Below, in pieces: positions 10,554 to 26,884 of a DNA stretch of 28,757 nucleotides. Position 1 is the stretch's first letter. Every line of letters starts with the position of its first letter. Where the stretch lies: assembly GCA_964572875.1 (NCBI GenBank), contig CAZNGE010000008.1, forward strand, positions 5,753-34,509. Reading direction: 5' to 3'. This stretch comes from an uncultured Methanosarcinales archaeon (GTDB lineage: Archaea; Nanobdellota; Nanobdellia; Woesearchaeales; UBA11576). The translations under genes and the position numbers were made by a program. Below the pieces are notes generated by a model. That model saw only the letters and a program-made list of their open reading frames with translations, made no database searches and was not told where the DNA came from.

Positions 10554-11014
10554 TTCGCTATTGCTGTCCTCTTCCTCTTCGTCCTCATGTAGACTGTTGA
10601 GACTGTCTTGTCTGACCTGTTGAGTATGACCGCTATCTGGTGGTTTGTCATGTTGGCCTTGTCGCGCAGGTACTCGACTACCACTTCCAGTATCGATAAT
10701 GACCTGTCCTTCACCACAGAAAGAGGGATCTGCACCAGGGGCGATTTCTTCACTGACATCTCCTCGGTCTCATCCCTTTTTCTCCTTGCCCTGCTGTACA
10801 GTGTCCAGATGTTCCTCTCATCCCTGTTGGTGAGCATGCCTATCTCATGGTATGAGAAGTTCAGCTGCTCCTTGAGGTATTCGACCAGGGACTCAAGAAA
10901 GCTCAGTGATCTGTCGCAGAATATTGTGGTGGGTATGAGTATCTGGGACTCAGAAAAAGCCTCTTTTATGATTCTCTCTTCACTAAAGCCGCTGATAGCG
11001 GCTTCTTTTTCCAT
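10550..11014 (-). CDS. Tandem helix-turn-helix DNA-binding protein (two sigma-70 region-4 / HTH_10-like modules), the first gene of the giant-protein operon.
   Basis: The module appears twice: IP..I..DRSLS.LE..VEYL.......EI..L.NR...T.....RA.RKR. The gene is translationally coupled (ATGA overlap) to the giant gene. Confidence 0.6.
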   Translation of the reverse strand: MEKEAAISGFSEERIIKEAFSESQILIPTTIFCDRSLSFLESLVEYLKEQLNFSYHEIGMLTNRDERNIWTLYSRARRKRDETEEMSVKKSPLVQIPLSVVKDRSLSILEVVVEYLRDKANMTNHQIAVILNRSDKTVSTVYMRTKRKRTAIAK

Positions 11015-12820: not shown

Positions 12821-13752
12821 GATGCTACCTCCGGAATGCAGGCTATGCGACAAAGACAACAAAATCATCAAACAAAATCATCAAACGCGCCCGCACCCCT
12901 GAATTTACCCATATATTAATGGTCAACCAGCTATTTAAATGTTGCTGTGATTTCGGGGTTTGTTGCGGGGTTGCTTTTGTTCTGTTTCCGCATGATTCCC
13001 TTGCCATAAAAAATATATAAAACGATTTATTAACCAACCCGTGATTTTTTCCGCATTTATTGCAAAAGATTTCAGCAACTGTTCAAAACTTTACCTAAAA
13101 CACCAATTTCCGTGATTATTACAACCATTTTTTCACAGCATTTTCCGTGCTTTGTTCGATTTGCATTTTGATTTGTTTATTTCAAACATTTTTTATCAAA
13201 AAACTATTTTCTATATGGATAAGTTTTAAATAGTAAAAAAGACATAGTTACTATTGGGGTCGGAGCAAGATAGCTTTCAAAGCAGTTTCATAATCCAATC
13301 GGTAAAAAGGAAGGTGTTGACTAAGCGCAGAACCGAACCTCGCAAGGGTCTTGTTCTTAGTCAAGCAGGTGATACAACATGGGGAAAACACTGACCACGA
13401 TAGCTGCAGCTGTGCTGGCACTGACTATGGGTGCTCCACACTCAGGCTGCACAAACGAGAAACCGATCCGGCCTACTGGTTCTCATGCAGAATATCCTGT
13501 TCCTTTTTTGAGAAAGCTGAGGAAAAAGATCTGCCCGGCAGCAAGCTGGGCGCAGATACAGGTGATAGATGAGGTGATGTCCGGAGCATCGAAAAGAGGT
13601 GCCGGAACTTCATATTTACGGGGCAGGGAGGCGCACTCAACGTTTGTTCTCCAAGCAAAGCGGCTTCGTCGCTTTGCGAGTATCGCCCGGAAAACATCCT
13701 CCCGCCCCGTACCTTATGCTCGTTGAGTTTGAGAAGATGAGAGAGAGATACC

Positions 13753-16140
13753 ATGGCCAGAACAACCAAACCCGCTAACGATGGAAAGCTTGAGGACATC
13801 GTCGCCGAAGCGCCGAAGGATGCCGAAGCGCCGAAGAGGTCCCGGGTGGCGTACATAAGCGAGGTCGCTTACGACACAGAGTATTTTGAGAGGCCTGACT
13901 CGCAGCAGGCATACAGCAACCTTCTTGAGTTCCTGTCGCAGGACAGGAGCGTGACCGGCATACTCATAGACGGAGCCATAACAAGGCTTGACCGGCCCGA
14001 GTTCCTCAACGAACGTCTCACGTACTGGGACAAGTCAGAGGAAGAGTGCCGCGAGGCCACAGAGCAGATACCGAACAGCGACCAGTACATGACCATGATG
14101 AGGACGCAGCTCAGCATAGTTGATGAGAGGCTAAGGGAGCTGAGGCAGCGGGTCCCCCACGCCAGGCAGATAACATTCTCGCTCCATTCTGACGATCTCC
14201 AGTACACGGCTTCCGCGATGCTCAATGAGCTGCTGATAAGGAAGCAGGCCAGGATAGGCGACAAGATAGAGAAGCTCAAGGTGAAGAAGAAGGACCTAAA
14301 GAAGAAGAGGACAGCTTTCGAGAGGGATTTCAAGAAGCTCAAGGGCAAGCGCGGCGGGGCGAGGGACCGGGCCACCCTGAAGAGGAAGATCAACACCTGC
14401 ACCACGAAGGTCGATAACATAGAGGAGAAGCTCACAGACTTATATGAGGAGCAGCAGCTCTACAGGGAGAAGAAGGTAAGGCCCATACACCAGCACACCA
14501 CCAATACGTTCTTGCAGAGAATATACAGTATGTATAAGGGCATCTGCGACAAGTACGGTGTAAGGCTCGTCACAGGCGAGGATAAGCTGGTCTTCGACGA
14601 CCACCTGACTATAGACTACTCGCACAGCAGGCACAAGACCTGGCATCCTGTCAAGGGCCGGGACAAGAATCTGGTCAAGGAGGTGCATGGGGAGCTCAGG
14701 AAGCTCAAGGGATCAGGTATCGACGTGAAGCTTGAGAGCGGCCATTTCGGCATGGGTTTCAAGCAGCTCCAGAAGCTGATGGACTCTCCTGAAGAGAATA
14801 ATTTCCTGAACCAGTCTGATTACGTGTCAAAGACCTGCGATGAGCATATAACCGTAGTGCTGGCGCTGCCGTTCGAGAACACTGCTGCTATAGGCGAGTA
14901 CTGCAAGGGCAGGAAAGCGATAAGGATGAGCGGCGGAAAGCCGATGAGCACGAGGAAGACAGCTGCCACAGACAGGTACTACAATGGCGGCGTGTCAGGA
15001 CTTACGATCATAGAGAAGGACGAGCAGGGAATAGTCAGGACAGACTGGATACAGTACCAGAACTTTGTCGACGGCGCTGTTCTCAGGCAGCCTGAGGAGT
15101 ATTCCATGATTGCGGCTTCTTCAGACGAGCACATGAGGTCGCCTGAATCCAACCCTATAGTCACTGACGGCTGGGTCGAGCGTTTCAAGAGCCTTGTAGC
15201 AGAAGGGACGGTCCTGCGGGGAAGGAAGGCGTTCGTGAAAGGCTATCTCAATGCAGGAGACATGGGAGAGGCGAACTCAAGGAAATGGCGCCATCTGTAT
15301 CATCATCAGCGGGCTCCTGAAGAGGTCATGGACGAGAACATCAGGCTTCTTGCAGATTTCCATCCTGAGAGCATAGATGAGGTGATAGCTCTCGCTATCA
15401 GGAAGACGAATGACTCGATGGGTGGCAGTGTCGAGAGCATGGATGACATACTTGACAGCGTCGCGGATTACCTGGAGAGGTTTCTCGACCCTCTGCTGGC
15501 CGGCAGCATGCTCAGGCATCTGCTTGCAGTGACGGAAGGCAACCATTCAGGGGATATACTGCGCGATCTCGGACTGCGCGAGACCAATTTCTTCAGGCAG
15601 CGCCTCAAGGCAAAGGGGCTGAAGCCGTTTGAGGTAGGTAAGCCCGGCTACATGCAGGACATGGAGAATGCCCGTGTCGTGCTAGGCGGGTACAGCAACG
15701 CACGCATATTCCAGATAACTGATTACGGCATGGGTGTAGACGGCAGGCCGATGTTCGGACCGATAAATCTTGTCGTGCAGCACGACCCGAAAGGCTCGGG
15801 TATGGGCGGGGTCATAGGCGCCGGGAAGAATGCTGGCGCAGACCTTTCGATAGGAGGGCACACGCATGACAATGTGCTGAAGCTCTATAAGACAGATGAT
15901 AACCAGTTCGGCGTCGCGTATAAGCTAGCCACCATGCAGGGGGTCTCGCCCACAGAGAAGTATTACGCATCCTCAGTGCCCCGGACGCAGGCGGCCCAGG
16001 AGCTGGTGATGCCGATGCCAGGCGACTTCAGCGAGAAGACGATACCTGTAGGCTATCTGCGCGACGAGGGCATGGCCGCCATCCGCAGGAAGGCAGAGGC
16101 GCATCTCAAGAAGAGGAAGGGCTGCAAGTGCAGGAGCTGA
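13753..16140 (+). CDS. Large (795 aa) Mre11/SbcD-like calcineurin-fold phosphoesterase homolog. Its N-terminal motifs I and II are degenerate, and a ~480-aa insertion containing a Lys-rich coiled coil is present.
   Basis: The N-terminus RVAYISEVAYDTEYF...VTGILIDGAITRLDRPE aligns in pattern to Mre11 KFAHLADIHLGYEQF...VDFILIAGDLFHSSRPS, but the metal ligands are replaced (DxH becomes ExA, GDxxH becomes DGxxT). Motifs III (TEGNHSGD), IV (VVQHD) and V/VI (GGHTHD) lie in the C-terminal third. The central segment KIEKLKVKKKDLKKKRTAFERDFKKLKGKR...EEKLTDLYEEQQLYREKK is predicted to form a coiled coil. Confidence 0.5.
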   Translation: MARTTKPANDGKLEDIVAEAPKDAEAPKRSRVAYISEVAYDTEYFERPDSQQAYSNLLEFLSQDRSVTGILIDGAITRLDRPEFLNERLTYWDKSEEECREATEQIPNSDQYMTMMRTQLSIVDERLRELRQRVPHARQITFSLHSDDLQYTASAMLNELLIRKQARIGDKIEKLKVKKKDLKKKRTAFERDFKKLKGKRGGARDRATLKRKINTCTTKVDNIEEKLTDLYEEQQLYREKKVRPIHQHTTNTFLQRIYSMYKGICDKYGVRLVTGEDKLVFDDHLTIDYSHSRHKTWHPVKGRDKNLVKEVHGELRKLKGSGIDVKLESGHFGMGFKQLQKLMDSPEENNFLNQSDYVSKTCDEHITVVLALPFENTAAIGEYCKGRKAIRMSGGKPMSTRKTAATDRYYNGGVSGLTIIEKDEQGIVRTDWIQYQNFVDGAVLRQPEEYSMIAASSDEHMRSPESNPIVTDGWVERFKSLVAEGTVLRGRKAFVKGYLNAGDMGEANSRKWRHLYHHQRAPEEVMDENIRLLADFHPESIDEVIALAIRKTNDSMGGSVESMDDILDSVADYLERFLDPLLAGSMLRHLLAVTEGNHSGDILRDLGLRETNFFRQRLKAKGLKPFEVGKPGYMQDMENARVVLGGYSNARIFQITDYGMGVDGRPMFGPINLVVQHDPKGSGMGGVIGAGKNAGADLSIGGHTHDNVLKLYKTDDNQFGVAYKLATMQGVSPTEKYYASSVPRTQAAQELVMPMPGDFSEKTIPVGYLRDEGMAAIRRKAEAHLKKRKGCKCRS

Positions 16141-16186
16141 TACGGTCTTATGGTAATGTTCAACGACTTCGCTAAAGGTGTATTTT

Positions 16187-17590
16187 ATGGCAGATGATGA
16201 TCAGGATGATAAGGATAGCAACCCTTTCGATTGGGGCCCGCTTTACCCCTGCGGTGATGATAAAGGGGATGATTGGGGCGGGAAAGCGGATGGGAAGGGA
16301 AGCAAGAGCCGCATAGACTTTCTCATGCCGCCTCTTCTCGGAGGCAGGGACAGGAAGTGCGGATCTGAAGAAAAGCCTAAAGACCCTCCTGAATGGACCC
16401 TTGAGGAGCAGGTCGCATTCCTGCAGAAAGAGCTCGATGAGAAGACGGAAGAGATAGAGCATCTGAAGGCAGAGGTCAATATCTATTCCGGCATGGTCGA
16501 TGATTATGAGGAGAAGATAGAGAAGACGAACCAGAAGATAATAGAGCATAACGAGAACATCAGGAAATGGCGCGCGGCGCATGAGGTGCTGAAGAAGCAG
16601 AATGAAGAGCTGACGAAACGGCGCGGGTCCATGCAGAAGGACGGGAAAGTGAGTGAGACATTCGCGGACCTGCAGGATATCGAGAAGGAGGTAGTTGACT
16701 TCAGGAAGCAGGACATACGGTTCGATGACGTGGGAGGAATAGGAAGAATAAGGGGCAAGATAGACGAGTTCGCCGCAGGCATAAAACATTATGATATGCA
16801 TGAGCAGTTCGCACTGGACGCACCGAGAGGCCTGCTTCTCCACGGGCCGCCGGGCTGCGGAAAGACCATGCTTGCGATGGCGATGGCCAATGAGATGGAG
16901 TGCGATTTCCTTCTTCTGCCGCCTACAAGGATAGGCAGCGGCATAGTGACGCGTTCATCGAGGCGGCTCGAGTTCGTGCTGAAAAAGTTCGTAGAGAAAT
17001 TCCGGAAGGACAGGATACCTACGATGATATTCGTGGATGAGGCCGACGGGATGCTCAAGAAGAGGGGATCGGCATTCGGCGTCAGCACATACGACGACAT
17101 AGTCAATGTCTGGCTCCGCTATCTCCAGGGGTCTGAGGATAATGAGGGCCTGATACTTGTCGCTGCGACGAACAGGTTCGACATGGTTGATGATGCTATC
17201 GTGAGGGCGGGCAGGGTGAACTATGTGCTGGAGGTCCCGAAGCCTGACAGGACAGGCGTCGAGGACATACTCCGGAAGCAGGTCATATACCGCCATCGCA
17301 GGGCGAAGAGGGAGTTCTACATGATAGATGATTACTCCAGGCTTGCAGACATGCTTTACGGGAAGCAGGCGAGCGGTGCTGACATCGCAGCAGTCCTTGA
17401 GCAGCCTGCAAGGGGGAGGATACTGCAGTTCGCAGAGCTGCCTGAAGACATACCCATATCTGCCGATGATGTGCTGATATGCCAGCAGGAGCTTGAGGAG
17501 GCCGTGCGCAATTACGCGCCTTCAGACATGATGCGCAGGAAGGAGCCTATAGGCTTCGGCAAGGGAGGGCGTCAGGTGCTTGTTGGGTGA
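16187..17590 (+). CDS. Classic-clade AAA+ ATPase with an acidic N-terminus and a ~80-aa coiled-coil/helical N-domain. It resembles Vps4/CdvC or PAN but has no OB domain.
   Basis: Walker A is GPPGCGKT, Walker B is MIFVDEADG, and the SRH is VAATNRFDMVDDAIVRAGRVNYV. The pre-Walker segment IRFDDVGGIGRIRGKIDEF matches the classic AAA pattern, and a C-terminal lid (GADIAAVLEQ) is present. The ATG at 16187 is preceded by AAAGGTG. The ORF track's GTG start at 16178 is less likely. Confidence 0.8.
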   Translation: MADDDQDDKDSNPFDWGPLYPCGDDKGDDWGGKADGKGSKSRIDFLMPPLLGGRDRKCGSEEKPKDPPEWTLEEQVAFLQKELDEKTEEIEHLKAEVNIYSGMVDDYEEKIEKTNQKIIEHNENIRKWRAAHEVLKKQNEELTKRRGSMQKDGKVSETFADLQDIEKEVVDFRKQDIRFDDVGGIGRIRGKIDEFAAGIKHYDMHEQFALDAPRGLLLHGPPGCGKTMLAMAMANEMECDFLLLPPTRIGSGIVTRSSRRLEFVLKKFVEKFRKDRIPTMIFVDEADGMLKKRGSAFGVSTYDDIVNVWLRYLQGSEDNEGLILVAATNRFDMVDDAIVRAGRVNYVLEVPKPDRTGVEDILRKQVIYRHRRAKREFYMIDDYSRLADMLYGKQASGADIAAVLEQPARGRILQFAELPEDIPISADDVLICQQELEEAVRNYAPSDMMRRKEPIGFGKGGRQVLVG

Positions 17591-17604
17591 TTTTCGGGGG
17601 GATC

Positions 17605-17850
17605 ATGATGATATATCCAGAATTTGATGATTGCGGGCATCTCGTCGAAGAGGCGTTAGATTACGCGAGAGAGCTCGGCATAGGGGCCAATGTTGTCGAT
17701 GCGGTCTTTGACCATGCATACCATGACAACAGGCAGATCTACAAGGCTATAACCGCTCTACCTGACCATGACACCCACCTCAGGCAGGCCAACGTGACCG
17801 TCCAGAAGAAGGTGATGTCAGAGCTTGAGAGGCTCGCGGGAAGGAAGTGA
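17605..17850 (+). CDS. Small (81 aa) helical protein that overlaps and is coupled to the AAA ATPase gene.
   Basis: The start region overlaps the AAA gene stop. The ATG at 17605 is preceded by GGGGGGA. The ORF track's alternative GTG start at 17587 gives an ATGA/GTGA-type overlap with the AAA stop. There is no recognisable domain. Confidence 0.4.
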   Translation: MMIYPEFDDCGHLVEEALDYARELGIGANVVDAVFDHAYHDNRQIYKAITALPDHDTHLRQANVTVQKKVMSELERLAGRK

Positions 17851-17901
17851 AGACAGGATGCATGATGTTCGTGTAATAAGGACAAGGAAAACCATGGAAG
17901 G

Positions 17902-18417
17902 GTGTTAGAGATATACAGGCTTGACGGGACGGAACGGAAGATAATGGACTACGTGACAGAGAATGCGCATGCCACGCCCAAGGAGATAGCCAGGGCTGTC
18001 GACACCGACGAGCAGACCGCAAGGCGCCTGTACAACAGGCTGTTCGCGGAGAACGCGTGCTCGCAGGTTATCCTGCCGAACTACGCGATGCTGGGTTTCA
18101 AGGTGATGATAATCCAGAAGCTCAAGGTGAAGAACAAGTCTTTGCCTGACGTCGCTTTCATCAAGGCGAAGATAGAGTCCGAATGGACCAACTGCATCGA
18201 CTGCCACGAGACATTCGACGGCAAGATATTCGTAAGGAGCGTCTGGAAGAACGCTGAGGAGTTTAAGGATGCCAGGATCCGCCTGCACCAGAAGCATGGC
18301 ATGGAGTGGCTCTCCGGAGAGGAGGTCGACATGGTTCCCTTGAACGAGCAGAGGAGCATATTCAGGGTAAAGAGCCTTTGGGAAAATGAGGTGGAGACTG
18401 AGGAGCCTACGGAATAG
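17902..18417 (+). CDS. Winged-HTH transcription regulator with an Lrp/AsnC-like architecture. Its C-terminal alpha/beta domain carries a conserved CxxCH motif.
   Basis: The N-terminal HTH is KEIARAVDTDEQTARRLYNRL, and a RAM-like segment ILPNYAMLGFKVMIIQKLKV follows. The motif WTNCIDCHETFDGKI is identical in the paralog at 21941. The start is a GTG, supported by conservation of the N-terminus (GTERKI versus NEQKIL) with that paralog. Confidence 0.6.
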   Translation: MLEIYRLDGTERKIMDYVTENAHATPKEIARAVDTDEQTARRLYNRLFAENACSQVILPNYAMLGFKVMIIQKLKVKNKSLPDVAFIKAKIESEWTNCIDCHETFDGKIFVRSVWKNAEEFKDARIRLHQKHGMEWLSGEEVDMVPLNEQRSIFRVKSLWENEVETEEPTE

Positions 18418-18765
18418 GCTGGTGAGGTATCTGCGTATAAAGAGATTCGTTTGGCACACGGCGTTGCTCTCCATTATTTTCGATTTGCGGCAATGGAGGG
18501 CTAAGAGACCGGTTAGCAGGCTCAACATACGGATCATCAGGGTGAGCGACAGGAAAGTCGTGAGGATCCGCTGAGATCCGCTGGACCTACGGGATGACAG
18601 GGACGTGCCGCACAAAAGAGAGGTGACAGGATGAGCACGATAGTCATGCTCTGCATAATCATACTGAAAAAACTACGGTGGGACTCGTAGGATTCCCTTG
18701 ACCTCGCTGAAGGGGATTTCTTGGCGTCTGCCGTCGTAAAGTTGGTTGTGGAAAGGTGTTGGGAA

Positions 18766-20301
18766 ATGTTTTCACGAAGAAAAATAAAGAATAGCGCGAA
18801 GAGCGTGAAGGAGCAGAATGCGGAGAACAGAAGAAAGAGGAAGGTATACGTCGACGAGGGAGGGAATGAGGTCAACATCTCATGGTGGACTCCCTGGAGG
18901 AGCGTCAAGGCTTTCCTGCTGGCTGCGGCGATAGGCACGGCCGGTGCAGGCCTTTACCATTATTTCAGCAGCCGGGCAGCGGTGGACCCGGCGGTGGTCT
19001 CGCATATGGAGGAGGTGAATGATGAGTTCTCTCTGTATGATTCTTACAGTCCATTGATCACACCTCTTGAGAGCATTGTCTCTCCTGGCAGCAGGGGGAA
19101 CATAATCAAGGATTCTGTCGTGATGTATGGAATACAGTCAGACAGGAAGAACATGGCTGTCAGGTCGATGAAGAGGTTCACCAATTGTTCGGATGAACCG
19201 GGTCATGAGGTGAATATCAGCGACAAGCGCCCGTTCATAAGGCCTGTCGATACAGGACAGGAACTGTACATCCAGTCTGCTGTCAGGATAAGCGGCATGG
19301 ATTTTGATGACCTTGAAGGCATCGTCAGCAGGAAGGCGGGGATACGGATAATTCCCGGGGTTCCTGAGATACTGCCCTATTATTTCAGCATAGACACCGT
19401 GAGCATCAACTCCAAAGGGATTCCGATGAAGTATGTCGAGGCCAGGAATCCTGATGGCAGGGTGGGCAGGCTGCACTACTATGTTGATCTCAGGGGCCTT
19501 GTCAGGGACAACGTGCTCGACGAGAGTGATTTCAAAGACCCCATTGACATAAGCATAGACTCGTCGATAGAGGTCATGGAGATAAGGCGATTGTATGAGG
19601 GTGATGTTGCAGGCATGTTCGCCTACAAGGCCATGCCTGAGTATCTGAGGAGATTCACCGAAAAGACCAGCGAGCTGCCGATTGGAAACCCGTGCATAAA
19701 GAAGATTGTCGATGCATATGATGGCCAGAAGTTGAATGTGCTTGATATTGTGGATTATGCACTGAGGGTCACAGGACAGGCATTCAGCTATAAGGTTCAG
19801 GACGAGGGCCAGGATCTTATGGATCTGGTCAGGAAGGGGGAAGCTGACTGCGAATACTACTCGAAATTATTCGTGACCGTGCTGCGCGCGTTCGGCGTAC
19901 CTGCGCGGCCTGCAGAAGGGCCGATCATGAAAGATGATGGTTCTGGTTTCAGGGGGAGACATGAGTGGGTTGAGGTCCTCCTTCCTTTCAAGGATGGCTC
20001 GTACAGGTGGGTCCTGGCAGAGCCTACATGGGCCGATGACAGTCCTGTGCCTGATGATTTCATAAATTATGTCGACGGCAGATACCTGTACAGCTTCGAC
20101 TTCGACGTTCAGCTGGACACGGGTGGCGATTCAGGCACGTTCTATGTCCTTCAGGACCATCGATGGCATTCGACGCGCGTGGAGGATCTCGATGCTGAGA
20201 TCAGCGATGATGGGGAGGCGCAGGATATGGTGGAAGCCGGGGCAAGGATGGATATGCCTCCGCTCGAGATGATAGTCCGGAAGAGGGCAGGTGGTGAATG
20301 A
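18766..20301 (+). CDS. Membrane-anchored transglutaminase-like (TGc) cysteine-protease-fold protein, ~511 aa.
   Basis: It has a positively charged N-terminus, one TM (AFLLAAAIGTAGAGLYHYF) and then an extracytoplasmic domain. The TGc core is GEADCEYYSKLFVTVLRAFGVPAR...RHEWVEVLL...WVLAEPT (Cys-His-Asp/Glu triad). The ATG at 18766 is preceded by GGAAAGGTG. The ORF track's TTG start at 18721 is less likely. Confidence 0.65.
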   Translation: MFSRRKIKNSAKSVKEQNAENRRKRKVYVDEGGNEVNISWWTPWRSVKAFLLAAAIGTAGAGLYHYFSSRAAVDPAVVSHMEEVNDEFSLYDSYSPLITPLESIVSPGSRGNIIKDSVVMYGIQSDRKNMAVRSMKRFTNCSDEPGHEVNISDKRPFIRPVDTGQELYIQSAVRISGMDFDDLEGIVSRKAGIRIIPGVPEILPYYFSIDTVSINSKGIPMKYVEARNPDGRVGRLHYYVDLRGLVRDNVLDESDFKDPIDISIDSSIEVMEIRRLYEGDVAGMFAYKAMPEYLRRFTEKTSELPIGNPCIKKIVDAYDGQKLNVLDIVDYALRVTGQAFSYKVQDEGQDLMDLVRKGEADCEYYSKLFVTVLRAFGVPARPAEGPIMKDDGSGFRGRHEWVEVLLPFKDGSYRWVLAEPTWADDSPVPDDFINYVDGRYLYSFDFDVQLDTGGDSGTFYVLQDHRWHSTRVEDLDAEISDDGEAQDMVEAGARMDMPPLEMIVRKRAGGE

Positions 20302-21263
20302 TGACATTTGTCGATTCAATCATGGAGTATATGGACAAGTTCCGCTTCTGGGAGATAGTCTATGAGTACAAGCAGGGCCTGCATTTCAGGAAAGGCAGTG
20401 TCATAAAGAGGAAGGTAAGATGTGACAAGGAGCTTGTGAAGAAGAACCTTGACAGGATAGTCCGGGAGGAGAACAAGGCAATGCGTGATAATGGAGGCGC
20501 GTGGAAGTACGTCCTCCCTTTCAGCAGGCCGGAGATTCCTGAGAGTTTCAGGAGGTCTTTCCTCACTGGCAAGCTGAAGTACAGGCATCGGCGTGACAAG
20601 GCACGGGGTAAGGAGGTTCCTCCGGGTACTTCAGGCACCCGCCAGCTTGATTTTCTTCAGATGGCGATTGATGAGGAGCGGTTAATGAAGGAGAATGGGG
20701 GTGTGTGGAGATATGTCCTGCCTCTGTTCAGGCCGGATGTACCTGAAGGGTATACCCGGTCAATAATCACGGGCAGGCTTGAGCACGAGGGCAGGTACAG
20801 CAAGATACTCAGGCAGGGGCTCTATCTTTACGTACCTTTCCTGGATGATATAGTTGCGGAGGACGTAAAGGAGAGGGTCATGGACCTTCAGAACATCAGC
20901 GTTCCCACAAGTGAGAAAGGGGATGAGAGCAGGGTCATGTCTGTCAGCTGCGCTATCCGTTACGAGATACAGGATTTCTACAAGGCCCATACCAAGGTGC
21001 ATGATTATGAGAACACATTGCAGGACTACACGATAGCAGAGCTTGCCAAGCACATAAGAGGATGGAACTATGAGAGTTGGAAGATGGCAGATGTCATCAA
21101 GAACATAGAGACAGATGTCCTGAAGGCATTGAGGAAGACAGCCACGCGTAGATGGGGAATCAAGATCCATGACTTCTATATAACGGATCATATCAGCTCT
21201 GATGTCAAGAGACTGCTGCATGAGGGATTAGAAGCCCCGATAGCAGCGGCAGTTGGGGAATAG
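20298..21263 (+). CDS. SPFH/band-7 (stomatin/prohibitin-like) domain protein with no N-terminal TM and a ~120-aa internal tandem repeat inserted in the domain.
   Basis: The N-terminus FWEIVYEYKQGLHFRKGSVIKR matches the SPFH start. The insertion is two copies of NGG(A/V)W(K/R)YVLP(F/L)(S/F)RP(E/D)(I/V)PE...(T/I)TG(K/R)L. The domain then resumes with YVPFLDDIV...WGIKIHDFYITDHI (compare WGIKVERVEIKDI of stomatins). The gene overlaps the transglutaminase gene by 4 bp (ATGA). Confidence 0.6.
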   Translation: MMTFVDSIMEYMDKFRFWEIVYEYKQGLHFRKGSVIKRKVRCDKELVKKNLDRIVREENKAMRDNGGAWKYVLPFSRPEIPESFRRSFLTGKLKYRHRRDKARGKEVPPGTSGTRQLDFLQMAIDEERLMKENGGVWRYVLPLFRPDVPEGYTRSIITGRLEHEGRYSKILRQGLYLYVPFLDDIVAEDVKERVMDLQNISVPTSEKGDESRVMSVSCAIRYEIQDFYKAHTKVHDYENTLQDYTIAELAKHIRGWNYESWKMADVIKNIETDVLKALRKTATRRWGIKIHDFYITDHISSDVKRLLHEGLEAPIAAAVGE

Positions 21264-21282
21264 CAGGGTGCAGAAATGTCTT

Positions 21283-21298
21283 ATTTTTTCTTTTTTAA
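21283..21298 (+). terminator. Oligo-T archaeal terminator following the SPFH gene.
   Basis: TCTTATTTTTTCTTTTTT lies immediately 3' of the stop at 21263. Confidence 0.5.
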
Positions 21299-21352: not shown

Positions 21353-21727
21353 TCAGGCGGCATATGCCGCAGTGACTAGTGCGAACAGCACGACACCGAT
21401 TCCGACAAACACCCAGTTCAGCACGTTCATATTCTTGACATGCCATCTTATCATGGCAAATCGTACAGCTATCAGGACATGGCATATGGATGCGAATGCC
21501 ATGGGAATTGTCAGGTAATCATGTATCTGGAAAGAGATAGCCCTGTGCATCAGCCCGCCAGTCCATTTATAGATGAAGCCTGATTTGGTTATGCCGAATC
21601 CTGAGACAAAATACAGCATTATAAAGACCAGCAGCGCCCAGGCGCAGAACCTGCCGAAACGTACGATAAAGCCTTCAAAGCTCGCAGAATGTTTTTTTTC
21701 AGGTATCTCGCGCTCTTTTTTTATCAT
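21353..21727 (-). CDS. Small (124 aa) three-TM membrane protein with several conserved-looking His residues.
   Basis: The hydrophobic helices are FCAWALLVFIMLYFVSGF, LTIPMAFASICHVLIAVRF and VLNWVFVGIGVVLFALVTAAYAA. Its family is unknown. Confidence 0.45.
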   Translation of the reverse strand: MIKKEREIPEKKHSASFEGFIVRFGRFCAWALLVFIMLYFVSGFGITKSGFIYKWTGGLMHRAISFQIHDYLTIPMAFASICHVLIAVRFAMIRWHVKNMNVLNWVFVGIGVVLFALVTAAYAA

Positions 21728-21940: not shown

Positions 21941-22429
21941 ATGTCGGGCAATACAAGATCCTTGAAAGCCAATGAGCAGAAGATCCTGCGCCTGCTCATG
22001 GACAATAAAGGACATACGTTCAGGGAGATAGCGAAGCAGGTCAACCTGAATGAGGTTTCTGTCAGGAGGATATACAACAAGCTCATGCAGGAGGATGTCT
22101 TCCAATCATTGCACATACCAAACTTCCCGCTTCTCGGCTATAAGATAATGATGCTCCAGCGCATATACATCGCGAGCCCGTTTCTCATCGAGACAAAGAA
22201 CATAATCAGGAACGTGCTTGATGAATGGAACAACTGCGTTGACTGCCACGAGACATATGACGGCAAGATAATAGCCCGCTCTGTATGGAAGAACGCAGAG
22301 GAGTTCAAGAAGGCGCATGCTGACTTCTACAAGAAGTTCGGCACAGAATGGCTCCAGAGGGAGAACATCGACATGATACCGCTCGACAACTCGAGCAGAC
22401 TGATCAGGATAAAGGGCATAGATGTTTGA
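21941..22429 (+). CDS. Winged-HTH Lrp/AsnC-like regulator, a paralog of the 17902 gene with the same CxxCH motif.
   Basis: The HTH is FREIAKQVNLNEVSVRRIYNKL. The segment WNNCVDCHETYDGKIIARSVWKNAEEFKKA is ~80% identical at the DNA level to 18188-18270. The SD is GGAGGG. Confidence 0.65.
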   Translation: MSGNTRSLKANEQKILRLLMDNKGHTFREIAKQVNLNEVSVRRIYNKLMQEDVFQSLHIPNFPLLGYKIMMLQRIYIASPFLIETKNIIRNVLDEWNNCVDCHETYDGKIIARSVWKNAEEFKKAHADFYKKFGTEWLQRENIDMIPLDNSSRLIRIKGIDV

Positions 22430-22712: not shown

Positions 22713-25304
22713 ATGGGCTGGCTGAAAAGGTTTTACAATCGCCTCAGAGGGCGCGGATTCGAGGATGAGGTATTCGATCTCGACGATATGACTAGCGAGA
22801 GCAGCGTGGACATAGAGCAGCAGGGCAGGAGCCTGGCTGACTTGCTGCTGTTCAGGAAGCCCGAGGAGAAGCCCGATGAGGAGAAGAAGATAAGCACTGC
22901 CCAGAGGCGTATCGACGACATAATAGATGAATATATCCGGGTGAAGAGCGAGGCCGGAGGCAAGTTCCTGAAGTACATGAAGAGAAAGGGGTGGGATCTT
23001 GAGGAGATCATCAATGCAGGTATGCTTTTCGAGCAGACCATATTCAAGGACAATGCCCAGCCGCCTGAAGAGTCTCTCAGGCTCCTGCACAGGGTCATAA
23101 AATCAGGCGTCCTGAAGGAGCAGAATTATGCGGTAGAATACCCTGATGGGACGAAAGGTCCTGTCGGTTCGTCCTCCCAGCTCAAGCTCGTGCTTTACGC
23201 CCTCAACAGGATGATCGCTTCATCAGTGCCTGCATGGGCATACCGTAATATCATCAGCGAATGGGTCGGCAACAAGGAAGCGTATAAGAACAGCGACCGC
23301 TTCGCCCTGGACTTCTTCCAGGCAGTGTCTGATCCGAGCAGGAAAGATGACAAGTCTGGCTCGCTCGCATTGGCAGGCCTCATGTCCAGGCAGCAGCGGG
23401 ACCTGCTGATAACCATCAACGATCGCCTGACGCGATCCTCATTGCTGAGGTATGGCAACAAGTTCTCAGTCATGTGTACTGGGATACTTAACGCGAACGA
23501 GCGTACTCCCCAGAAGGCATATGAGCTCTGCGAGAAGTTCCTTGAAAAGGACACTAAGTTCGAGGTCCCGGAGATGTGCGGCTCGCTTCTCAGCCTTCCC
23601 GATGAGACGCCCAGAAGGACGTTCCAGTTCATAGAGGATGCTATTAACCGCATACTCTCCGACGATAAGACAGGTATGTCTGTGAAGTGGTATGCGGAAA
23701 GCCTTGAGAACTATGTTTCCCAGATTTCGAAGAAGCTGAGTGATGTGGGGCTCGCTCCCCAGATGGATGACAATCCTGAGAGGTTCCTGCAGAACTGGTA
23801 CAAGCTGTCAGAGCTCGCCACCAAGTACGGGAACTTCGGCATGTTCCGGAGAGAGGATATCTCATTTCTTCTCGCGCAGGCCGACTTCGATGCTAAGACC
23901 TATATCGAGAAATGCCTCAATGAGCTCAAGCAGCTTGACCTCAACATGTCAAGCATGACCTCGGGCTATAAACCCGAGGCTCCTCACTTCGAGTTCCTCC
24001 TCGACAGGCTGCATGACGCGAACCCTCTCGAGTCCATGGTGTTTGCCATGGCCCATATGAAGGCAGTGAAAGGAGAGTTGCTGAGGCCATTCGAACAGAG
24101 GTGGTATGATGAGCTGGTGTCTAAGGCATACGCGCGCAACACAGACCTGAGGGAAGACCAGAGGAAGCTGGTAGACATCGTCGTCGACAGGAGGAACACA
24201 AAAGACGTTCCGCCTCATGTCGCAGAGTATTACCGACTGCAGTATGGCGTAAAGGTATCAGGAAGGATGCTCGACCTGGGCAAGGACAACAATGCATGGT
24301 ACCGCTTCAGGAGCTCTGTTGAGGGATATCAGGCCCTGAACGGGGAGGGCCAGGGTGAGGACAGGGTGGATAAAGGGTTCATATCCAGGATTGTCTGGCA
24401 CCTGAACCGGCATGGACAGCTTGGGATGCGCGACATACTTCTGGCAGGGCTTGCCTGCGGCGATGGATGGAAAGAGATCGCGATGTACCTGGAGATAAAG
24501 GACAGGCAGCGGCTTAAGGACGGCAGGCCGTTCAATGTCTGGCTGAACATGTATGACAAGAACTCTGAGATGATAGCAAGGGCAAGGAGGAACTGCAACA
24601 GCAAGAGGATAGCGGCTTCCACCTACAGGAGGGACATAATGGAGATGAACTATGAGACTGATTTCTCAGGTTTCGAGAGGCAGCTTATTTTCTTCCTAGG
24701 AGGAAGGACTCCTTTCAACTTCGGGGATGATTTCAACAGGCTCCTTGACTCCCTGCTCATGATCAGTCTCAAGCACTTCACGGAGAAGGTGCCAAAGCCC
24801 GCGATAATACTGATTGAAGGCGCTGAATCGACGAACATGGAGCATTACTGGGACAGGAATGCGATACAGCTGCATTCCGAATACCTGTTGAGGCGCCTTG
24901 AGATGGACCGCAACGTGATATATTTTGACAAGTCGATCACCCAGCCGATAACGCTTCCTCTGACAGTCATAGGAGAGTCGGCGGAGACTACATACGCAGC
25001 GATCCAGACGCCTGAGAAGGACAGCGTAGAGTTCTATTTTGTCGCGCTCAGGGATACCCCGATACTGGGAGGTAAGCACATGCTGCATGCCAATGAAGTG
25101 ATAAGGTGCGGCGAGAGCAGGCTTATGTCCCCGGAGATATATGCTTCATTGAAAGACCGGTTCATCTGGGAGGTCATAAGGAACGACAATGACGCGAACA
25201 ACATGTTCCTGAAGCTGATACCTGATTACGAAAAGCTTTTAGGTACAGAAAGACAGGCAGAATTACCTTTTAAGTTATTGATGCCGCAGACTGAAGAAAA
25301 ATGA
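22713..25304 (+). CDS. Large (863 aa) protein of unknown function. Its C-terminal third has class-I SAM-methyltransferase (EgtD/Methyltransf_33-like) motifs.
   Basis: The SD is GGAGGC. Motif I is ILLAGLACGDGWKEI, the post-I segment is FNVWLNMYDKNSEM, and motif III is LLDSLLMISLKHFTEKVPKPAIILIEG. The N-terminal ~550 aa show no recognisable domain. Confidence 0.5.
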   Translation: MGWLKRFYNRLRGRGFEDEVFDLDDMTSESSVDIEQQGRSLADLLLFRKPEEKPDEEKKISTAQRRIDDIIDEYIRVKSEAGGKFLKYMKRKGWDLEEIINAGMLFEQTIFKDNAQPPEESLRLLHRVIKSGVLKEQNYAVEYPDGTKGPVGSSSQLKLVLYALNRMIASSVPAWAYRNIISEWVGNKEAYKNSDRFALDFFQAVSDPSRKDDKSGSLALAGLMSRQQRDLLITINDRLTRSSLLRYGNKFSVMCTGILNANERTPQKAYELCEKFLEKDTKFEVPEMCGSLLSLPDETPRRTFQFIEDAINRILSDDKTGMSVKWYAESLENYVSQISKKLSDVGLAPQMDDNPERFLQNWYKLSELATKYGNFGMFRREDISFLLAQADFDAKTYIEKCLNELKQLDLNMSSMTSGYKPEAPHFEFLLDRLHDANPLESMVFAMAHMKAVKGELLRPFEQRWYDELVSKAYARNTDLREDQRKLVDIVVDRRNTKDVPPHVAEYYRLQYGVKVSGRMLDLGKDNNAWYRFRSSVEGYQALNGEGQGEDRVDKGFISRIVWHLNRHGQLGMRDILLAGLACGDGWKEIAMYLEIKDRQRLKDGRPFNVWLNMYDKNSEMIARARRNCNSKRIAASTYRRDIMEMNYETDFSGFERQLIFFLGGRTPFNFGDDFNRLLDSLLMISLKHFTEKVPKPAIILIEGAESTNMEHYWDRNAIQLHSEYLLRRLEMDRNVIYFDKSITQPITLPLTVIGESAETTYAAIQTPEKDSVEFYFVALRDTPILGGKHMLHANEVIRCGESRLMSPEIYASLKDRFIWEVIRNDNDANNMFLKLIPDYEKLLGTERQAELPFKLLMPQTEEK

Positions 25305-26884
25305 AGAATTCGCTGAAAGGAGTAGGATCGCTGGAACGTATCGTCTATCACACGATGGTGGATGGACGGGGCAGGCTTAGGAAGGGCTATGCCCGGCTCC
25401 TGAACCCTTTCGGCAAGTACCGTCATGACCAGTATCCGGCGAACCAGATAGGCCTGCTTGCCCGTCTCGAGAAGCCCCTGCAGGATATGCACATAAAGCT
25501 CGGCGAGATAGAGGATCTTGTCAGGAATGACCGCGCTTATGTTCAGGGCATGTATTCCCCCAATCTGATTCATTTCGTAAGGAAGGTCATCGCGCGTATA
25601 GGGATGGAATCATACAACGTAGAGTGGAGGAACAGGGAGAGCCAGATCCAGCTCAAGGAGAAGATCGAGGCTTCTACTGACATCACGTTGCTCGCGAACA
25701 GGATGCTTTCAGAGATGGCTGAGAGGCATGTCATAGCTGTGTTCAAGGACATAATGAGGGACAAGACCCATCCGCGGAAGAAGGACTTCTATACTGTCAT
25801 GGATCTCGGCTGCGGCATGCACGCCGCGACGATAGGTAACCATCTCGAGAAGCTGCATGATCTCGCTGGAAAGGGACTCATCCCGAAGAGATACAGCGAT
25901 TACGTCAGGGTGCTGCTCGTCGACGTGGATCCGCATGCGACGCATAAGACAGCAGACATGATATCCAATCCTAATTCATATAAGCATCTGGGGTTCAAGT
26001 TCAGCTCTCCGAGGGAGGTCCATTGCTTCAACATGAACTTCAATGAGCTCGCGACCAACCCGGCATTGATGGACTACACAGGGCTTGTAGACACAGGGCT
26101 CAGCGGGGCAGCGCCGTGCCACGTGACAGAGAAGGATGAGTTCTTCAGCATGAACCGCAAGCTGTGCTCGCACAGGGGGGCATTCTTCATGTGGGACTGG
26201 CTCGCCAAGACATTCGCGGCCCAGTATCTCAGGTTGCCGCGTATCGCACCGGGCTGCATATTGTTCGAGGCGTCTCGCGAAATCCCTGAACGGCATGAGG
26301 TATACACATTCGAAGACATAGATGCTATACCTGATGATTTCTATGAGAAACTTAAGGGCACAAGGTGGCGCAGCATCTATGAGCTGCGCGAGGAGGATGT
26401 GGCGCCCCATCTGGCGAACATGGATGCCTGGCTTGGGTATTGGGGGTACAGGATGTTCGACGATTCAGAGGAGTGCTTTGTCGAGAAGCAGGTCAATGGC
26501 ATGGGCATAACCGAGTTCCACCGTAAGCTGTTCCATATGCTGATCGAGAAGGAGAGGGGATACAACCCGATACATGATTTCGTGATAGGCTCGCTTTCAA
26601 GAGGCAGGAGGTCTGACCTTATGCCTTTCGATACCGGTAGGGTCGCCTACAACTTCATAGAGAGCTATGGCATCGAGGTCTCCAGGATGATGAGGAAGGC
26701 CGGTTTCGAGGCATATGACATACCTTTCGCAGAAGCGATGGATCTCGCAAGGACGCAGAACTTAAGCGGAGAGTTCAACATGAATGCAGATGATCTCAAT
26801 GAGACGCAGAAAGTGATGATGCCTGCCCTGAACTTCAGCGTCGCTTACGACGACAAGGATTATCTTGATGAGCTACTTAGATGA
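25301..26884 (+). CDS. 527-aa protein with an EgtD-like SAM-methyltransferase motif set. It is translationally coupled (ATGA overlap) to the 863-aa gene.
   Basis: Motif I is FYTVMDLGCGMHAATIGNHL, and the post-I segment is YVRVLLVDVDPHATHK with an acidic residue at the end of beta-2. Later motifs include FFSMNRKLCSHRGAFFMWDW. Confidence 0.5.
   Translation: MKNSLKGVGSLERIVYHTMVDGRGRLRKGYARLLNPFGKYRHDQYPANQIGLLARLEKPLQDMHIKLGEIEDLVRNDRAYVQGMYSPNLIHFVRKVIARIGMESYNVEWRNRESQIQLKEKIEASTDITLLANRMLSEMAERHVIAVFKDIMRDKTHPRKKDFYTVMDLGCGMHAATIGNHLEKLHDLAGKGLIPKRYSDYVRVLLVDVDPHATHKTADMISNPNSYKHLGFKFSSPREVHCFNMNFNELATNPALMDYTGLVDTGLSGAAPCHVTEKDEFFSMNRKLCSHRGAFFMWDWLAKTFAAQYLRLPRIAPGCILFEASREIPERHEVYTFEDIDAIPDDFYEKLKGTRWRSIYELREEDVAPHLANMDAWLGYWGYRMFDDSEECFVEKQVNGMGITEFHRKLFHMLIEKERGYNPIHDFVIGSLSRGRRSDLMPFDTGRVAYNFIESYGIEVSRMMRKAGFEAYDIPFAEAMDLARTQNLSGEFNMNADDLNETQKVMMPALNFSVAYDDKDYLDELLR

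What the first reader, a model, noticed from the sequence alone, without database searches (positions are those of the whole stretch)
18766..21263. Operon of an extracytoplasmic membrane-anchored transglutaminase-like protein and a cytoplasmic SPFH protein bearing an inserted tandem repeat
SPFH (stomatin/HflKC) proteins are classically paired with a protease partner such as NfeD or FtsH. Here the 4-bp-overlapping upstream partner is instead a TGc-fold (Cys-His-Asp/Glu) cysteine-protease-like membrane protein. The SPFH protein lacks the usual N-terminal membrane hairpin. It carries two ~60-aa repeats (NGGxW[KR]YVLP..RP.[IV]PE...TG[KR]L) spliced into the start of the SPFH domain. This may be a new variant of the stomatin-operon-partner theme. 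The upstream CxxCH wHTH regulator may control it.
Basis: partly seen in the sequence, partly recalled or inferred. Interest (0 to 1): 0.55.

Follow-up and report, generated by a model that had tools for sequence, protein, structure and literature searches.

The report
Clade-specific TGc–SPFH operon in DPANN archaea
Two overlapping genes of a tiny symbiotic-type (DPANN) archaeon encode a probably membrane-anchored transglutaminase-like enzyme and an unusual anchorless SPFH protein with a repeated insert, but the pairing occurs in only one small clade, so it is a local curiosity and not a new general SPFH–protease system.

Summary
ORF A (18766-20301) has a Transglut_core domain with invariant Cys362/His399/Glu419. 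ORF B (20298-21263) has an SPFH/Band_7 domain. The genes overlap (ATGA), and ORF B carries two copies of a ~52-aa module (z=27 against shuffles).

The module is not a peculiarity of this protein. It defines a tiny SPFH family (about 23 representatives among 1.84 billion) whose named members are Woesearchaeota or Nanoarchaeota (DPANN) MAGs. All members lack a membrane anchor and the wall/cap helices that build SPFH cages. All carry 1-3 module copies in the β1-β2 loop of SPFH1. The module matches no Pfam or PDB entry and occurs nowhere else.

The TGc gene lies upstream, with start and stop overlapping, in five lineages. These form one terminal clade of the family tree, where about 13 genes are syntenic. 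Eight other lineages have no TGc neighbour and share no other partner.

TGc evolves much faster than SPFH. Its catalytic domain is predicted to lie outside the membrane, and SPFH inside.

My best reading is a derived, co-transcribed membrane module, not a stomatin–NfeD or HflKC–FtsH analogue. It is a new variant of a known kind, of moderate interest.

The parts
18766..20301 (+). TGc gene (511 aa): basic N-terminal tail, one marginal hydrophobic segment, an uncharacterised β-rich middle region, and a C-terminal transglutaminase-like core
   Evidence: Pfam Transglut_core E=1.9e-13. Only 5 clusters of relatives among 5.8 billion proteins. An AGGTG Shine-Dalgarno-like motif ~10 nt upstream of ATG 18766 is conserved in orthologous leaders.
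18910..18966 (+). Single hydrophobic Ala/Gly-rich segment (residues 49-67), probably an N-in/C-out signal anchor
   Evidence: KD19 is 1.36 (1.58-1.66 in orthologues) and the apparent insertion free energy is +1.9 to +3.9. There are 12-16 K/R before the segment and 1-4 K/R with 6-8 D/E in the 30 aa after it.
19777..20025 (+). TGc catalytic core (residues 338-420), with Cys362 (19849-19851), His399 (19960-19962) and Glu419 (20020-20022)
   Evidence: Pfam match. The three residues are invariant in A2/A3.
20298..21263 (+). SPFH-core gene (321 aa; the true start is probably ATG 20301, giving 320 aa). It has no anchor and no wall/cap helices.
   Evidence: Band_7 E=2.2e-13. Profile hits to QmcA and stomatin. 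Foldseek matches to stomatin cores. The start comes from orthologues and P0001.
20346..20405 (+). SPFH1 strand β1 (residues 17-36, FWEIVYEYKQGLHFRKGSVI)
   Evidence: It aligns to stomatin KIIKEYERAIIFRLGRILQ. The alignment then jumps across the insert.
20445..20600 (+). Module copy 1 (residues 50-101): charged helix followed by NGGxW[KR]YxLPFxRPx[IV]PE..RSFxTG[KR]L
   Evidence: hmmsearch with A4, E=3e-31.
20649..20804 (+). Module copy 2 (residues 118-169), a duplication shared with the L004 and L015 lineages
   Evidence: E=3e-30.
20787..21191 (+). Band_7 (SPFH) match, from β2 to the end of the α/β core
   Evidence: Pfam residues 164-298. Foldseek TM ~0.8 to 4fvg, 3bk6 and 8gn9.
21284..21296 (+). 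Two T6 tracts 21-33 nt after the SPFH stop codon; probably an archaeal oligo-T terminator
   Evidence: These are the first T5+ tracts on the + strand after 13509. The terminator role is inferred.
18693..18724 (+). Conserved 32-nt box in the leader, 42-73 nt upstream of the TGc start codon; role unknown (possibly an operator or 5'-UTR element)
   Evidence: Conserved in the four aligned leaders. Unique in the window. No consistent fold was found.
18386..18574 (+). p62: a small arginine-rich ORF overlapping the 3' end of the regulator gene
   Evidence: 62 codons in all lineages, 52-80% identity, with synonymous-type substitutions.
17902..18417 (+). Lrp/AsnC-like wHTH regulator (171 aa) with an invariant NCxDCHET motif. 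A paralogue lies at 21941-22429.
   Evidence: HTH_24 E=4.9e-6. 75-88% identical across lineages and always upstream.
13753..17850 (+). Upstream same-strand genes that may be co-transcribed: a 795-aa coiled-coil protein, a classical-clade AAA ATPase (16178-17590) and p87
   Evidence: Gaps are 37, -4 and 51 nt, with no T5+ tract. AAA E=1.3e-24. Syntenic in L003, L004, L001 and L014.
21353..21727 (-). Convergent 124-aa protein with several predicted transmembrane segments. It occupies the position held by a GGDEF gene in L001-L003. It is not NfeD.
   Evidence: KD19 2.2-2.4. No NfeD hit. 62% identical in L004 and L015.

Best explanation
**What it is (shown).** This is a chromosomal gene pair of an archaeon related to Woesearchaeota/Nanoarchaeota (DPANN) MAGs.

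The downstream gene belongs to a very small SPFH family. The family members that carry an organism name come from DPANN MAGs. The family keeps only the SPFH1 hairpin and the SPFH2 α/β core. It has lost the N-terminal membrane hairpin and the C-terminal wall/cap helices. The β1-β2 loop of SPFH1 carries 1-3 copies of a family-specific module: a charged helix followed by a Pro/aromatic/basic stretch, Y.LPF.RP.VPEGY.RSF.TG.P..KR.

This family is ancestrally a stand-alone gene. In one terminal clade a fast-evolving TGc-fold gene (Cys-His-Glu) was recruited directly upstream. The two genes then became translationally coupled, behind an Lrp-like regulator and a small basic ORF.

**How it probably works (inferred).**
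- The TGc protein is a type-II anchored enzyme. Its catalytic domain faces outward and cleaves, cross-links or deamidates cell-surface proteins.
- The SPFH protein sits on the cytoplasmic face.
- In human stomatin, SPFH1 is the membrane-facing subdomain (PMC12344292). The basic/aromatic module in its loop is therefore well placed to replace the lost anchor as a peripheral membrane-binding or partner-binding arm, with copy number tuning avidity.
- In this clade the SPFH protein would cluster or stabilise the TGc enzyme through its short, conserved, K/R-rich tail (SWWTPWR motif). It would not enclose a protease in a cage.

The confidence of 0.42 refers to this mechanism. The descriptive part is about 0.85.
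For: - Domain calls and catalytic residues.
- Family size and restriction: 11 clusters. The module-only profile finds 23 proteins among 1.84e9 representatives. All but one spurious Cys-rich repeat protein have the same SPFH architecture.
- Module copy number is 1-3.
- Organism names are Woesearchaeota or Nanoarchaeota. Archaeal marker genes occur in the loci. The window has an intron-containing tRNA.
- No anchor.
- No wall/cap helices: the Band_7 match ends at profile position 145 of 176. The protein ends ~15 positions after the point that aligns to stomatin residue 183 of 256.
- Pair with start/stop overlap in five lineages, despite gain and loss of flanking operon genes.
- The TGc-linked genes form one terminal clade in a neighbour-joining tree.
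- Positive-inside charge pattern in all TGc orthologues.
- TGc is fast-evolving, which fits an exposed protein.
- An oligo-T tract lies directly after the SPFH gene.
- Role of SPFH1 at the membrane: PMC12344292.
Against: - No direct evidence exists for any TGc–SPFH interaction.
- The structure models are poor (pLDDT 49 and 41), so the fold of the module and the membrane orientation of its loop are unknown.
- The TGc hydrophobic segment is only marginal.
- The N-terminal helix of the SPFH protein is only weakly amphipathic (μH 0.36).
- TGc and SPFH diverge at unrelated rates.
- The SPFH gene functions without TGc in most of the family, and possibly in L015.
- The whole ~13-gene block is syntenic in the clade. 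The adjacency could therefore be inherited and not selected.
Confidence: 0.42

Rival explanations
1. The pair is a true analogue of stomatin–NfeD or HflKC–FtsH. The SPFH protein forms an oligomeric assembly that encloses or gates its operon-partner protease, with a TGc cysteine peptidase in place of NfeD or FtsH.
For: - The genes are overlapping and co-oriented, and the overlap is conserved in five lineages.
- TGc has an intact peptidase-like triad.
- SPFH proteins classically pair with proteases. For example, QmcA–YbbJ (8z5g) and HflKC–FtsH structures appear among the hits.
Against: - The SPFH protein lacks the anchor and the wall/cap helices that build the cage.
- The pairing is absent in eight other lineages of the family.
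- The predicted topology separates the catalytic domain from the SPFH protein.
- The two proteins evolve at uncoupled rates.
- No NfeD or FtsH-type peptidase is present.
Confidence: 0.13
2. The two genes are co-transcribed but functionally independent neighbours. The adjacency is a historical accident, fixed once in the ancestor of a clade that keeps the whole ~13-gene block in order.
For: - The entire block from p795 to Lrp148 is syntenic in the same lineages.
- The TGc association arose once.
- The SPFH family is otherwise a stand-alone gene in varied housekeeping contexts.
- A possible TGc-less variant exists in L015.
Against: - The start/stop overlap persists at 44-76% SPFH identity.
- Both flanking operon genes (p302-378 and GGDEF) were lost or gained independently, yet the pair stayed intact.
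Confidence: 0.25
3. Both proteins are cytoplasmic and belong to a larger system. That system is encoded by the same-strand array: coiled-coil protein, AAA ATPase, regulator, p62, TGc, SPFH, with or without GGDEF. It would act in proteolysis, protein modification or conflict. The TGc enzyme might act on the repeated SPFH modules or on substrates unfolded by the AAA ATPase.
For: - The TGc hydrophobic segment is marginal (apparent insertion free energy +1.9 to +3.9).
- There is no T5+ tract from 13510 to 21283 and the intergenic gaps are short.
- The AAA ATPase belongs to the classical PAN/FtsH/Cdc48 clade and gives sub-threshold IetA-like hits.
- TGc, p863 and p527 are fast-evolving.
- Trypsin-like genes lie upstream in L003.
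Against: - The positive-inside pattern and a positionally conserved hydrophobic segment favour a real anchor.
- PADLOC gives no hit for TGc, SPFH, p863 or p527.
- The absence of T-tracts is only weakly significant, because about 2.5 are expected (my estimate).
- Lrp-like regulator genes interrupt the array.
Confidence: 0.15

Closest known systems
Stomatin / QmcA-type SPFH proteins (Pfam Band_7; PH1511, human stomatin, E. coli QmcA)
   Same: Both have the SPFH1 β-hairpin and the SPFH2 α/β core. These are the best sequence and fold matches.
   Different: - The window protein has no N-terminal hydrophobic hairpin or transmembrane segment.
- It has no wall helix, cap helix or C-terminal barrel.
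- A 52-68 aa module (1-3 copies) replaces a 5-residue loop of SPFH1.
- It has no NfeD partner.
Stomatin–NfeD (STOPP) and HflK/C–FtsH operon or complex pairs
   Same: An SPFH gene lies adjacent to, and is co-transcribed with, a gene for a peptidase-like membrane protein.
   Different: - The partner has the TGc fold (Cys-His-Glu), not the ClpP-like serine fold or the AAA-M41 type.
- The pairing is restricted to one clade of the SPFH family.
- The domains are probably on opposite membrane faces.
- A cage-forming architecture is absent.
TgpA-like membrane-anchored extracytoplasmic transglutaminase-like proteins (P. aeruginosa TgpA, PDB 6g49)
   Same: Both have a TGc core predicted to lie outside the membrane behind an N-terminal anchor. 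TgpA ranks second in the Foldseek list.
   Different: The Foldseek match is not significant (E=0.02, poor model). The window protein has a single marginal anchor where TgpA, from my own knowledge, has several transmembrane helices. Its middle domain is unrelated. No sequence match to any PDB entry was found.
Major vault protein and archaeal 'MVP repeat + SPFH shoulder' proteins (PMC13607799)
   Same: Short repeated units are associated with an SPFH-type core. That paper reports DPANN examples of ~320 aa.
   Different: The module gives no sequence match to Pfam or PDB. It is inserted after β1, not placed before the SPFH domain. The structural comparison could not be made because the model is poor.

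Membership tests
SPFH / Band 7 superfamily (PF01145) | Significant match to the Band_7 profile, above the gathering score | tested here: met
   51.1 bits against 23.6, E=2.2e-13, residues 164-298. Profile hits to QmcA (E=4.5e-4) and stomatin.
SPFH / Band 7 superfamily (PF01145) | α/β SPFH core fold | tested here: met
   Residues ~190-304 of the model (pLDDT 60-88) superpose on stomatin cores 4fvg, 3bk6 and 8gn9 (TM ~0.8, rmsd ~2.2 Å, E~1e-7). The rest of the model is unreliable.
Cage-forming SPFH proteins (stomatin, HflK/C, prohibitin, flotillin, erlin) | N-terminal transmembrane helix or hydrophobic hairpin anchor | tested here: not met
   KD19 maximum is 0.74 and the best 19-aa apparent insertion free energy is +14.7. 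No family member shows such an anchor.
Cage-forming SPFH proteins (stomatin, HflK/C, prohibitin, flotillin, erlin) | C-terminal wall/cap (coiled-coil) helices that form the dome | tested here: not met
   The Band_7 match stops at profile position 145 of 176. The protein ends ~15 positions after the point aligned to stomatin residue 183 of 256.
Cage-forming SPFH proteins (stomatin, HflK/C, prohibitin, flotillin, erlin) | Large homo- or hetero-oligomeric ring | not testable with these tools
   No multimer prediction tool was available and the monomer model is poor. Tandem paralogues in L018 hint at hetero-oligomers.
Stomatin–NfeD / HflKC–FtsH partner systems | Adjacent NfeD-family gene or FtsH-type AAA-M41 protease | tested here: not met
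   No ORF scanned gives an NfeD or Peptidase_M41 hit. The AAA protein at 16178-17590 has no peptidase domain, and the 124-aa membrane protein is not NfeD.
Stomatin–NfeD / HflKC–FtsH partner systems | Partner association conserved across the SPFH subfamily | tested here: not met
   TGc is upstream in 5 lineages that form one terminal clade. It is absent in 8 other lineages, and L015 is ambiguous.
Stomatin–NfeD / HflKC–FtsH partner systems | Protease domain and SPFH domain on the same side of the membrane | tested here: inconclusive
   The charge pattern predicts TGc outside and SPFH inside, but the anchor is marginal. No dedicated topology predictor was available.
Transglutaminase-like (TGc) superfamily (PF01841) | Profile match above the gathering score | tested here: met
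   51.1 bits against 23, E=1.9e-13, residues 338-420.
Transglutaminase-like (TGc) superfamily (PF01841) | Conserved Cys-His-Asp catalytic triad | tested here: met
   Cys362 and His399 are invariant. Glu419 (motif EPTW) replaces the Asp of DPT and is invariant, as is Asp424. The assignment of motif positions rests on established knowledge of the family.
Transglutaminase-like (TGc) superfamily (PF01841) | Peptidase or transglutaminase activity | not testable with these tools
   This needs biochemistry.
Major vault protein repeat (Pfam Vault / ECOD 3529.1) | The module is homologous to the MVP repeat | tested here: inconclusive
   No Pfam hit at E≤10 and no PDB hit to MVP at E≤10. A structural test was impossible because pLDDT is below 50 in the insert.
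IetAS anti-phage system | IetA-family ATPase above the family cut-off, plus an IetS protease | tested here: not met
   The NCBIfam IteA model gives 86.9 bits against a cut-off of 510. The same protein scores higher with PAN (132 bits). No S8 protease is present.

The most novel reading that the evidence does not exclude
The whole same-strand array is one lineage-specific membrane proteostasis or signalling system of DPANN archaea. The array comprises the coiled-coil protein, a classical AAA ATPase, an Lrp-like regulator, p62, the TGc peptidase and the SPFH protein, plus a GGDEF cyclase in sister lineages. It would be a 'split' functional analogue of FtsH–HflKC, with unfoldase, peptidase and SPFH scaffold as separate proteins. 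In some lineages it would be coupled to a GGDEF-type nucleotide cyclase, which would imply c-di-GMP-like signalling in archaea. The variable-copy SPFH1 module would provide a new way of attaching an SPFH protein to a membrane or a partner.
Probability: 0.1. Interest if true: 0.7.

Novelty: new variant of a known kind. Interest (0 to 1): 0.4.

Why it matters
SPFH proteins are understood as anchored, coiled-coil-capped cages that organise membrane patches and control partner proteases. This family keeps only the SPFH core and adds a variable-copy module in the membrane-facing SPFH1 subdomain.

If the module proves to be an alternative attachment or oligomerisation device, it would show a second way to build an SPFH scaffold. 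It would also give a minimal system for studying what the SPFH core does on its own.

The TGc pairing is a recent, clade-limited recruitment. It is useful as an example of how SPFH genes acquire peptidase-like partners, but it is not a new general system.

The family is found in DPANN archaea, whose membrane and surface biology is central to their symbiotic lifestyle and is almost unexplored.

Tried and rejected
- **Structure models.** AlphaFold2 models of both proteins from the only available shallow alignments (7 and 5 sequences) were poor (pLDDT 49 and 41). Nothing can be said about the fold of the insert or about the TGc N-terminal region. Foldseek with the TGc model gave nothing significant (best E=0.019; TgpA, 6g49, ranked second at the same E, with a poor superposition).
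- **Module against known domains.** No Pfam family matched at E≤10 in more than one of ten copies. PDB gave only chance hits.
- **MVP repeat lead.** The idea from PMC13607799 found no sequence support.
- **Module as a duplication of SPFH strand β2.** hhalign does align WKYVLPFSRPEIP with LYLYVPFLDDIVA, but only at E=0.036 and probability 1.4%. This is not accepted.
- **Defence or phage origin.** PADLOC and PHROGs gave no hits for TGc or SPFH. Viral contigs hold no relatives. The IetA-like hits of the AAA ATPase are far below the cut-off.
- **Conserved leader box as an RNA hairpin.** The minimum-free-energy folds differ between lineages and Rfam finds nothing there.
- **A recurrent alternative partner in the wider family.** Neighbours of eight lineages share no similarity.
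- **Neighbouring proteins.** The 795-aa, 863-aa and 527-aa proteins gave no PDB matches.
- **L015 as proof of a TGc-less close relative.** The scaffold has a 27-N gap flanked by a duplicated 25-mer, so I leave this ambiguous.
- **Literature.** I found no paper in the held library describing a TGc–SPFH operon or this SPFH family.
Full report
**1. The observation**

The two ORFs exist as described. ORF A (18766-20301, +, 511 aa) matches Pfam Transglut_core (E=1.9e-13, residues 338-420). ORF B (20298-21263, +, 321 aa) matches Band_7/SPFH (E=2.2e-13, residues 164-298 = profile positions 14-145 of 176). The stop codon of A and the start codon of B overlap as ATGA. Orthologues and the database copy start at the next ATG (20301), which gives a 1-nt overlap.

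ORF B contains two copies of a module (residues 50-101 and 118-169; nt 20445-20600 and 20649-20804). The local alignment score is 136, against 22.6±4.2 for 2000 shuffles (z=27). The two copies are 57% identical at the nucleotide level, so the duplication is old.

A family profile aligns β1 (FWEIVYEYKQGLHFRKGSV) to stomatin KIIKEYERAIIFRLGRILQ. It resumes at PGLFF (β2) only after the insert. The insert therefore replaces a 5-residue loop between β1 and β2.

ORF B has no hydrophobic segment (KD19 maximum 0.74).

ORF A has one positionally conserved Ala/Gly-rich hydrophobic segment. Its tail carries 12-16 K/R, and the following stretch is acidic, which fits N-in/C-out. The segment is only marginally hydrophobic: KD19 is 1.36-1.66, and the apparent insertion free energy is +1.9 to +3.9 on the Hessa scale, which I recalled from memory.

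Cys362, His399 and Glu419 are invariant. Glu419 sits in the position of the Asp of the DPT motif.

**2. What the SPFH protein is**

Searches of 5.8 billion proteins found only 7, and then 11, clusters of relatives. A profile of the module alone, scored against 1.84 billion representatives, found 23 proteins. All but one spurious Cys-rich repeat protein have the same architecture: a short N-terminal helix, β1, a charged helix, the module at about residues 45-100, then the rest of the SPFH domain.

Copy number is one in most members. It is two in the window/L004/L015 subclade and, independently, in P0015, P0023 and L018a. It is three in P0016.

The module matches no Pfam family and no solved structure.

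Every member ends about 15 residues after the SPFH2 core, so the wall and cap helices of cage-forming SPFH proteins are missing. The part of the AlphaFold model that is usable (residues ~190-304) superposes on stomatin cores with TM ~0.8.

Organism names, where given, are Candidatus Woesearchaeota or Nanoarchaeota. The loci carry archaeal marker genes: S3Ae, S6e, Topo VI-A, Rpb6 and exosome RNase PH. The window has an intron-containing tRNA.

The 'inserted tandem repeat' is therefore the hallmark of a small, DPANN-associated, anchorless, coiled-coil-less SPFH family. Only the second copy is a clade-specific duplication.

**3. Is the TGc–SPFH pairing conserved?**

The TGc family is even smaller, with 5 clusters. 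A TGc gene lies directly upstream with a 1- or 4-nt overlap in five lineages: window/L005, L004, L003, L001/L002/L006 and L014.

In these lineages the whole block is syntenic. The order is: ~790-aa coiled-coil protein, AAA ATPase, small ORFs, 171-aa wHTH, p62, (p302-378), TGc, SPFH, (GGDEF), 162-aa wHTH, ~830-866-aa protein, ~530-aa protein, double-HTH, Lrp.

The operon edges are fluid:
- A 302-378-aa gene lies between the leader and TGc in L003, L004 and L014. Only its first ~12 codons remain in L001, and it is absent in the window.
- A GGDEF gene follows SPFH in L001-L003. It is absent without remnant in the window and L004, where a convergent 124-aa membrane protein gene sits.

The TGc–SPFH junction survives all of these changes, which argues for co-expression.

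Eight further lineages of the SPFH family have no TGc neighbour: L007, L008, L009/10/11, L012, L013, L016/17, L018 and L019. Their neighbours share no similarity with one another.

In a neighbour-joining tree the TGc-linked genes form one terminal clade. L015, a close relative (SPFH 74% identical), shows p62 followed directly by SPFH, but across a scaffold gap, so it is ambiguous.

TGc evolves much faster than SPFH. Between the window and L004 it is 42% identical, against 76% for SPFH and 76-92% for most neighbours.

**4. Transcription context**

Two T6 tracts lie 21-33 nt after the SPFH stop codon. They are the first T5+ tracts on the + strand since 13509. Gaps between the seven upstream same-strand genes are short. 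The pair may therefore be the distal end of a longer transcript that includes the Lrp-like regulator. About 2.5 T-tracts would be expected by chance, so this is weak evidence.

The leader carries a conserved 32-nt box (18693-18724) of unknown role. It has no consistent fold.

**5. Mechanism**

*Shown:* the domain identities, the catalytic residues, the lack of an anchor and of coiled coils, the position of the module, the narrow family, and the single derived recruitment of TGc with start/stop overlap.

*Inferred:*
- TGc is a type-II anchored ecto-enzyme acting on surface proteins.
- The SPFH protein is cytoplasmic.
- SPFH1 is the membrane-facing subdomain in human stomatin (PMC12344292). The basic/aromatic/proline-rich module in its loop is therefore a plausible substitute for the lost anchor, or a partner-binding arm.
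- In this clade the SPFH protein could cluster or stabilise TGc through its conserved basic tail.

I give this mechanism 0.42.

**6. Comparison with known systems**

The protein is a member of the SPFH superfamily, and ORF A is a member of the TGc superfamily (both tests met). ORF B is not a member of the cage-forming stomatin/HflKC/prohibitin/flotillin type, because the anchor and wall/cap helix tests were not met.

The locus is not a stomatin–NfeD or HflKC–FtsH system. It has no NfeD or M41 peptidase, the pairing is not family-wide, and the topology is probably split across the membrane.

No paper in the held library describes a TGc–SPFH operon or this SPFH family.

**7. Verdict**

The feature is real and was correctly observed. 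It is a new variant of a known kind: an SPFH-core family with a variable-copy SPFH1 module, and a clade-limited TGc operon partner. Interest is moderate (0.4). The SPFH family is the more interesting half, and the pairing is a local, derived event.

Noticed in passing
L001:5119-5877; L002:3625-4419; L003:10781-11566: A GGDEF-domain gene with an intact GGDEF motif and metal-binding DxD region directly follows the SPFH gene in three related archaeal loci. As far as I know, diguanylate-cyclase-type signalling is not established in archaea. The window has no remnant of this gene.
   Followed up: partly
L012:3-1073 and 3017-4165; window 10550-11014 (-): Full-length sigma-70-like genes (regions 2, 3 and 4) flank the SPFH homologue on a contig with archaeal markers (S6e, IMP cyclohydrolase). 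The window has a 153-aa ORF with a Sigma70_r4_2 hit (E=1.6e-6). Bacterial-type sigma factors in DPANN archaea would be unusual.
   Followed up: no
window 18386-18574 (+): A 62-codon arginine-rich ORF overlaps the 3' end of the wHTH gene by 32 nt. It has the same length in all lineages, is 52-80% identical, and shows synonymous-type substitutions. It is probably a real small basic protein.
   Followed up: partly
window 17902-18417 and 21941-22429 (+): These are paralogous Lrp/AsnC-like wHTH regulators (40% identical). They share an invariant NCxDCHET motif (CxxCH). Each precedes an operon of fast-evolving proteins. Only the HTH part aligns to a canonical Lrp (hhalign E=0.004).
   Followed up: partly
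window 22713-26884 (+): An 863-aa and a 527-aa protein with overlapping genes have no Pfam or PDB match. They evolve extremely fast (60-68% identity to L004, 17-27% to L003 and L001). The L003 orthologue of the 527-aa protein shows a weak methyltransferase signal.
   Followed up: partly
window 13753-17590 (+): A 795-aa coiled-coil protein is followed by a classical-clade AAA ATPase with an N-terminal coiled coil. The ATPase scores highest with PAN (132 bits) and also with Cdc48, FtsH, CdvC and IetA, all far below the family cut-offs. Two Trypsin_2 genes precede the orthologous pair in L003.
   Followed up: partly
window 70-185 (+): A 116-nt tRNA found by Rfam (41.5 bits) but missed by ARAGORN. 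It probably contains an intron, which fits an archaeal origin.
   Followed up: no
window 1473-10553 (-): A giant 3026-aa ORF with Laminin_G_3, Big_7 and fn3 signals. It is probably a surface protein, as is typical of DPANN genomes.
   Followed up: no
L018:5018-5887 and 6001-6930: Two tandem paralogues of the SPFH-with-module family lie side by side. This recalls the HflK/HflC, PHB1/2 and flotillin-1/2 pairs and hints at hetero-oligomers.
   Followed up: no
L015:440-900: In a close relative, p62 is followed after ~170 nt by the SPFH start codon with no TGc gene. The scaffold has a 27-N gap flanked by a duplicated 25-mer, and 38 nt after the gap could be the end of another ORF terminating in ATGA. 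This is either strain variation or an assembly artefact.
   Followed up: partly
window 18693-18724 (+): A 32-nt box (TTCCCTTGACCTCGCTGAAGGGGATTTCTTGG) in the operon leader is conserved in the four lineages whose leaders were aligned (window, L004, L003, L001). It gives no Rfam hit and no consistent predicted fold. It may be an operator for the adjacent regulator.
   Followed up: partly
window 13510-21283 (+ strand): No run of five or more T occurs across 7.7 kb covering seven same-strand genes. Two T6 runs then follow immediately after the SPFH stop codon. This fits avoidance of internal archaeal terminators, but about 2.5 runs are expected by chance.
   Followed up: partly
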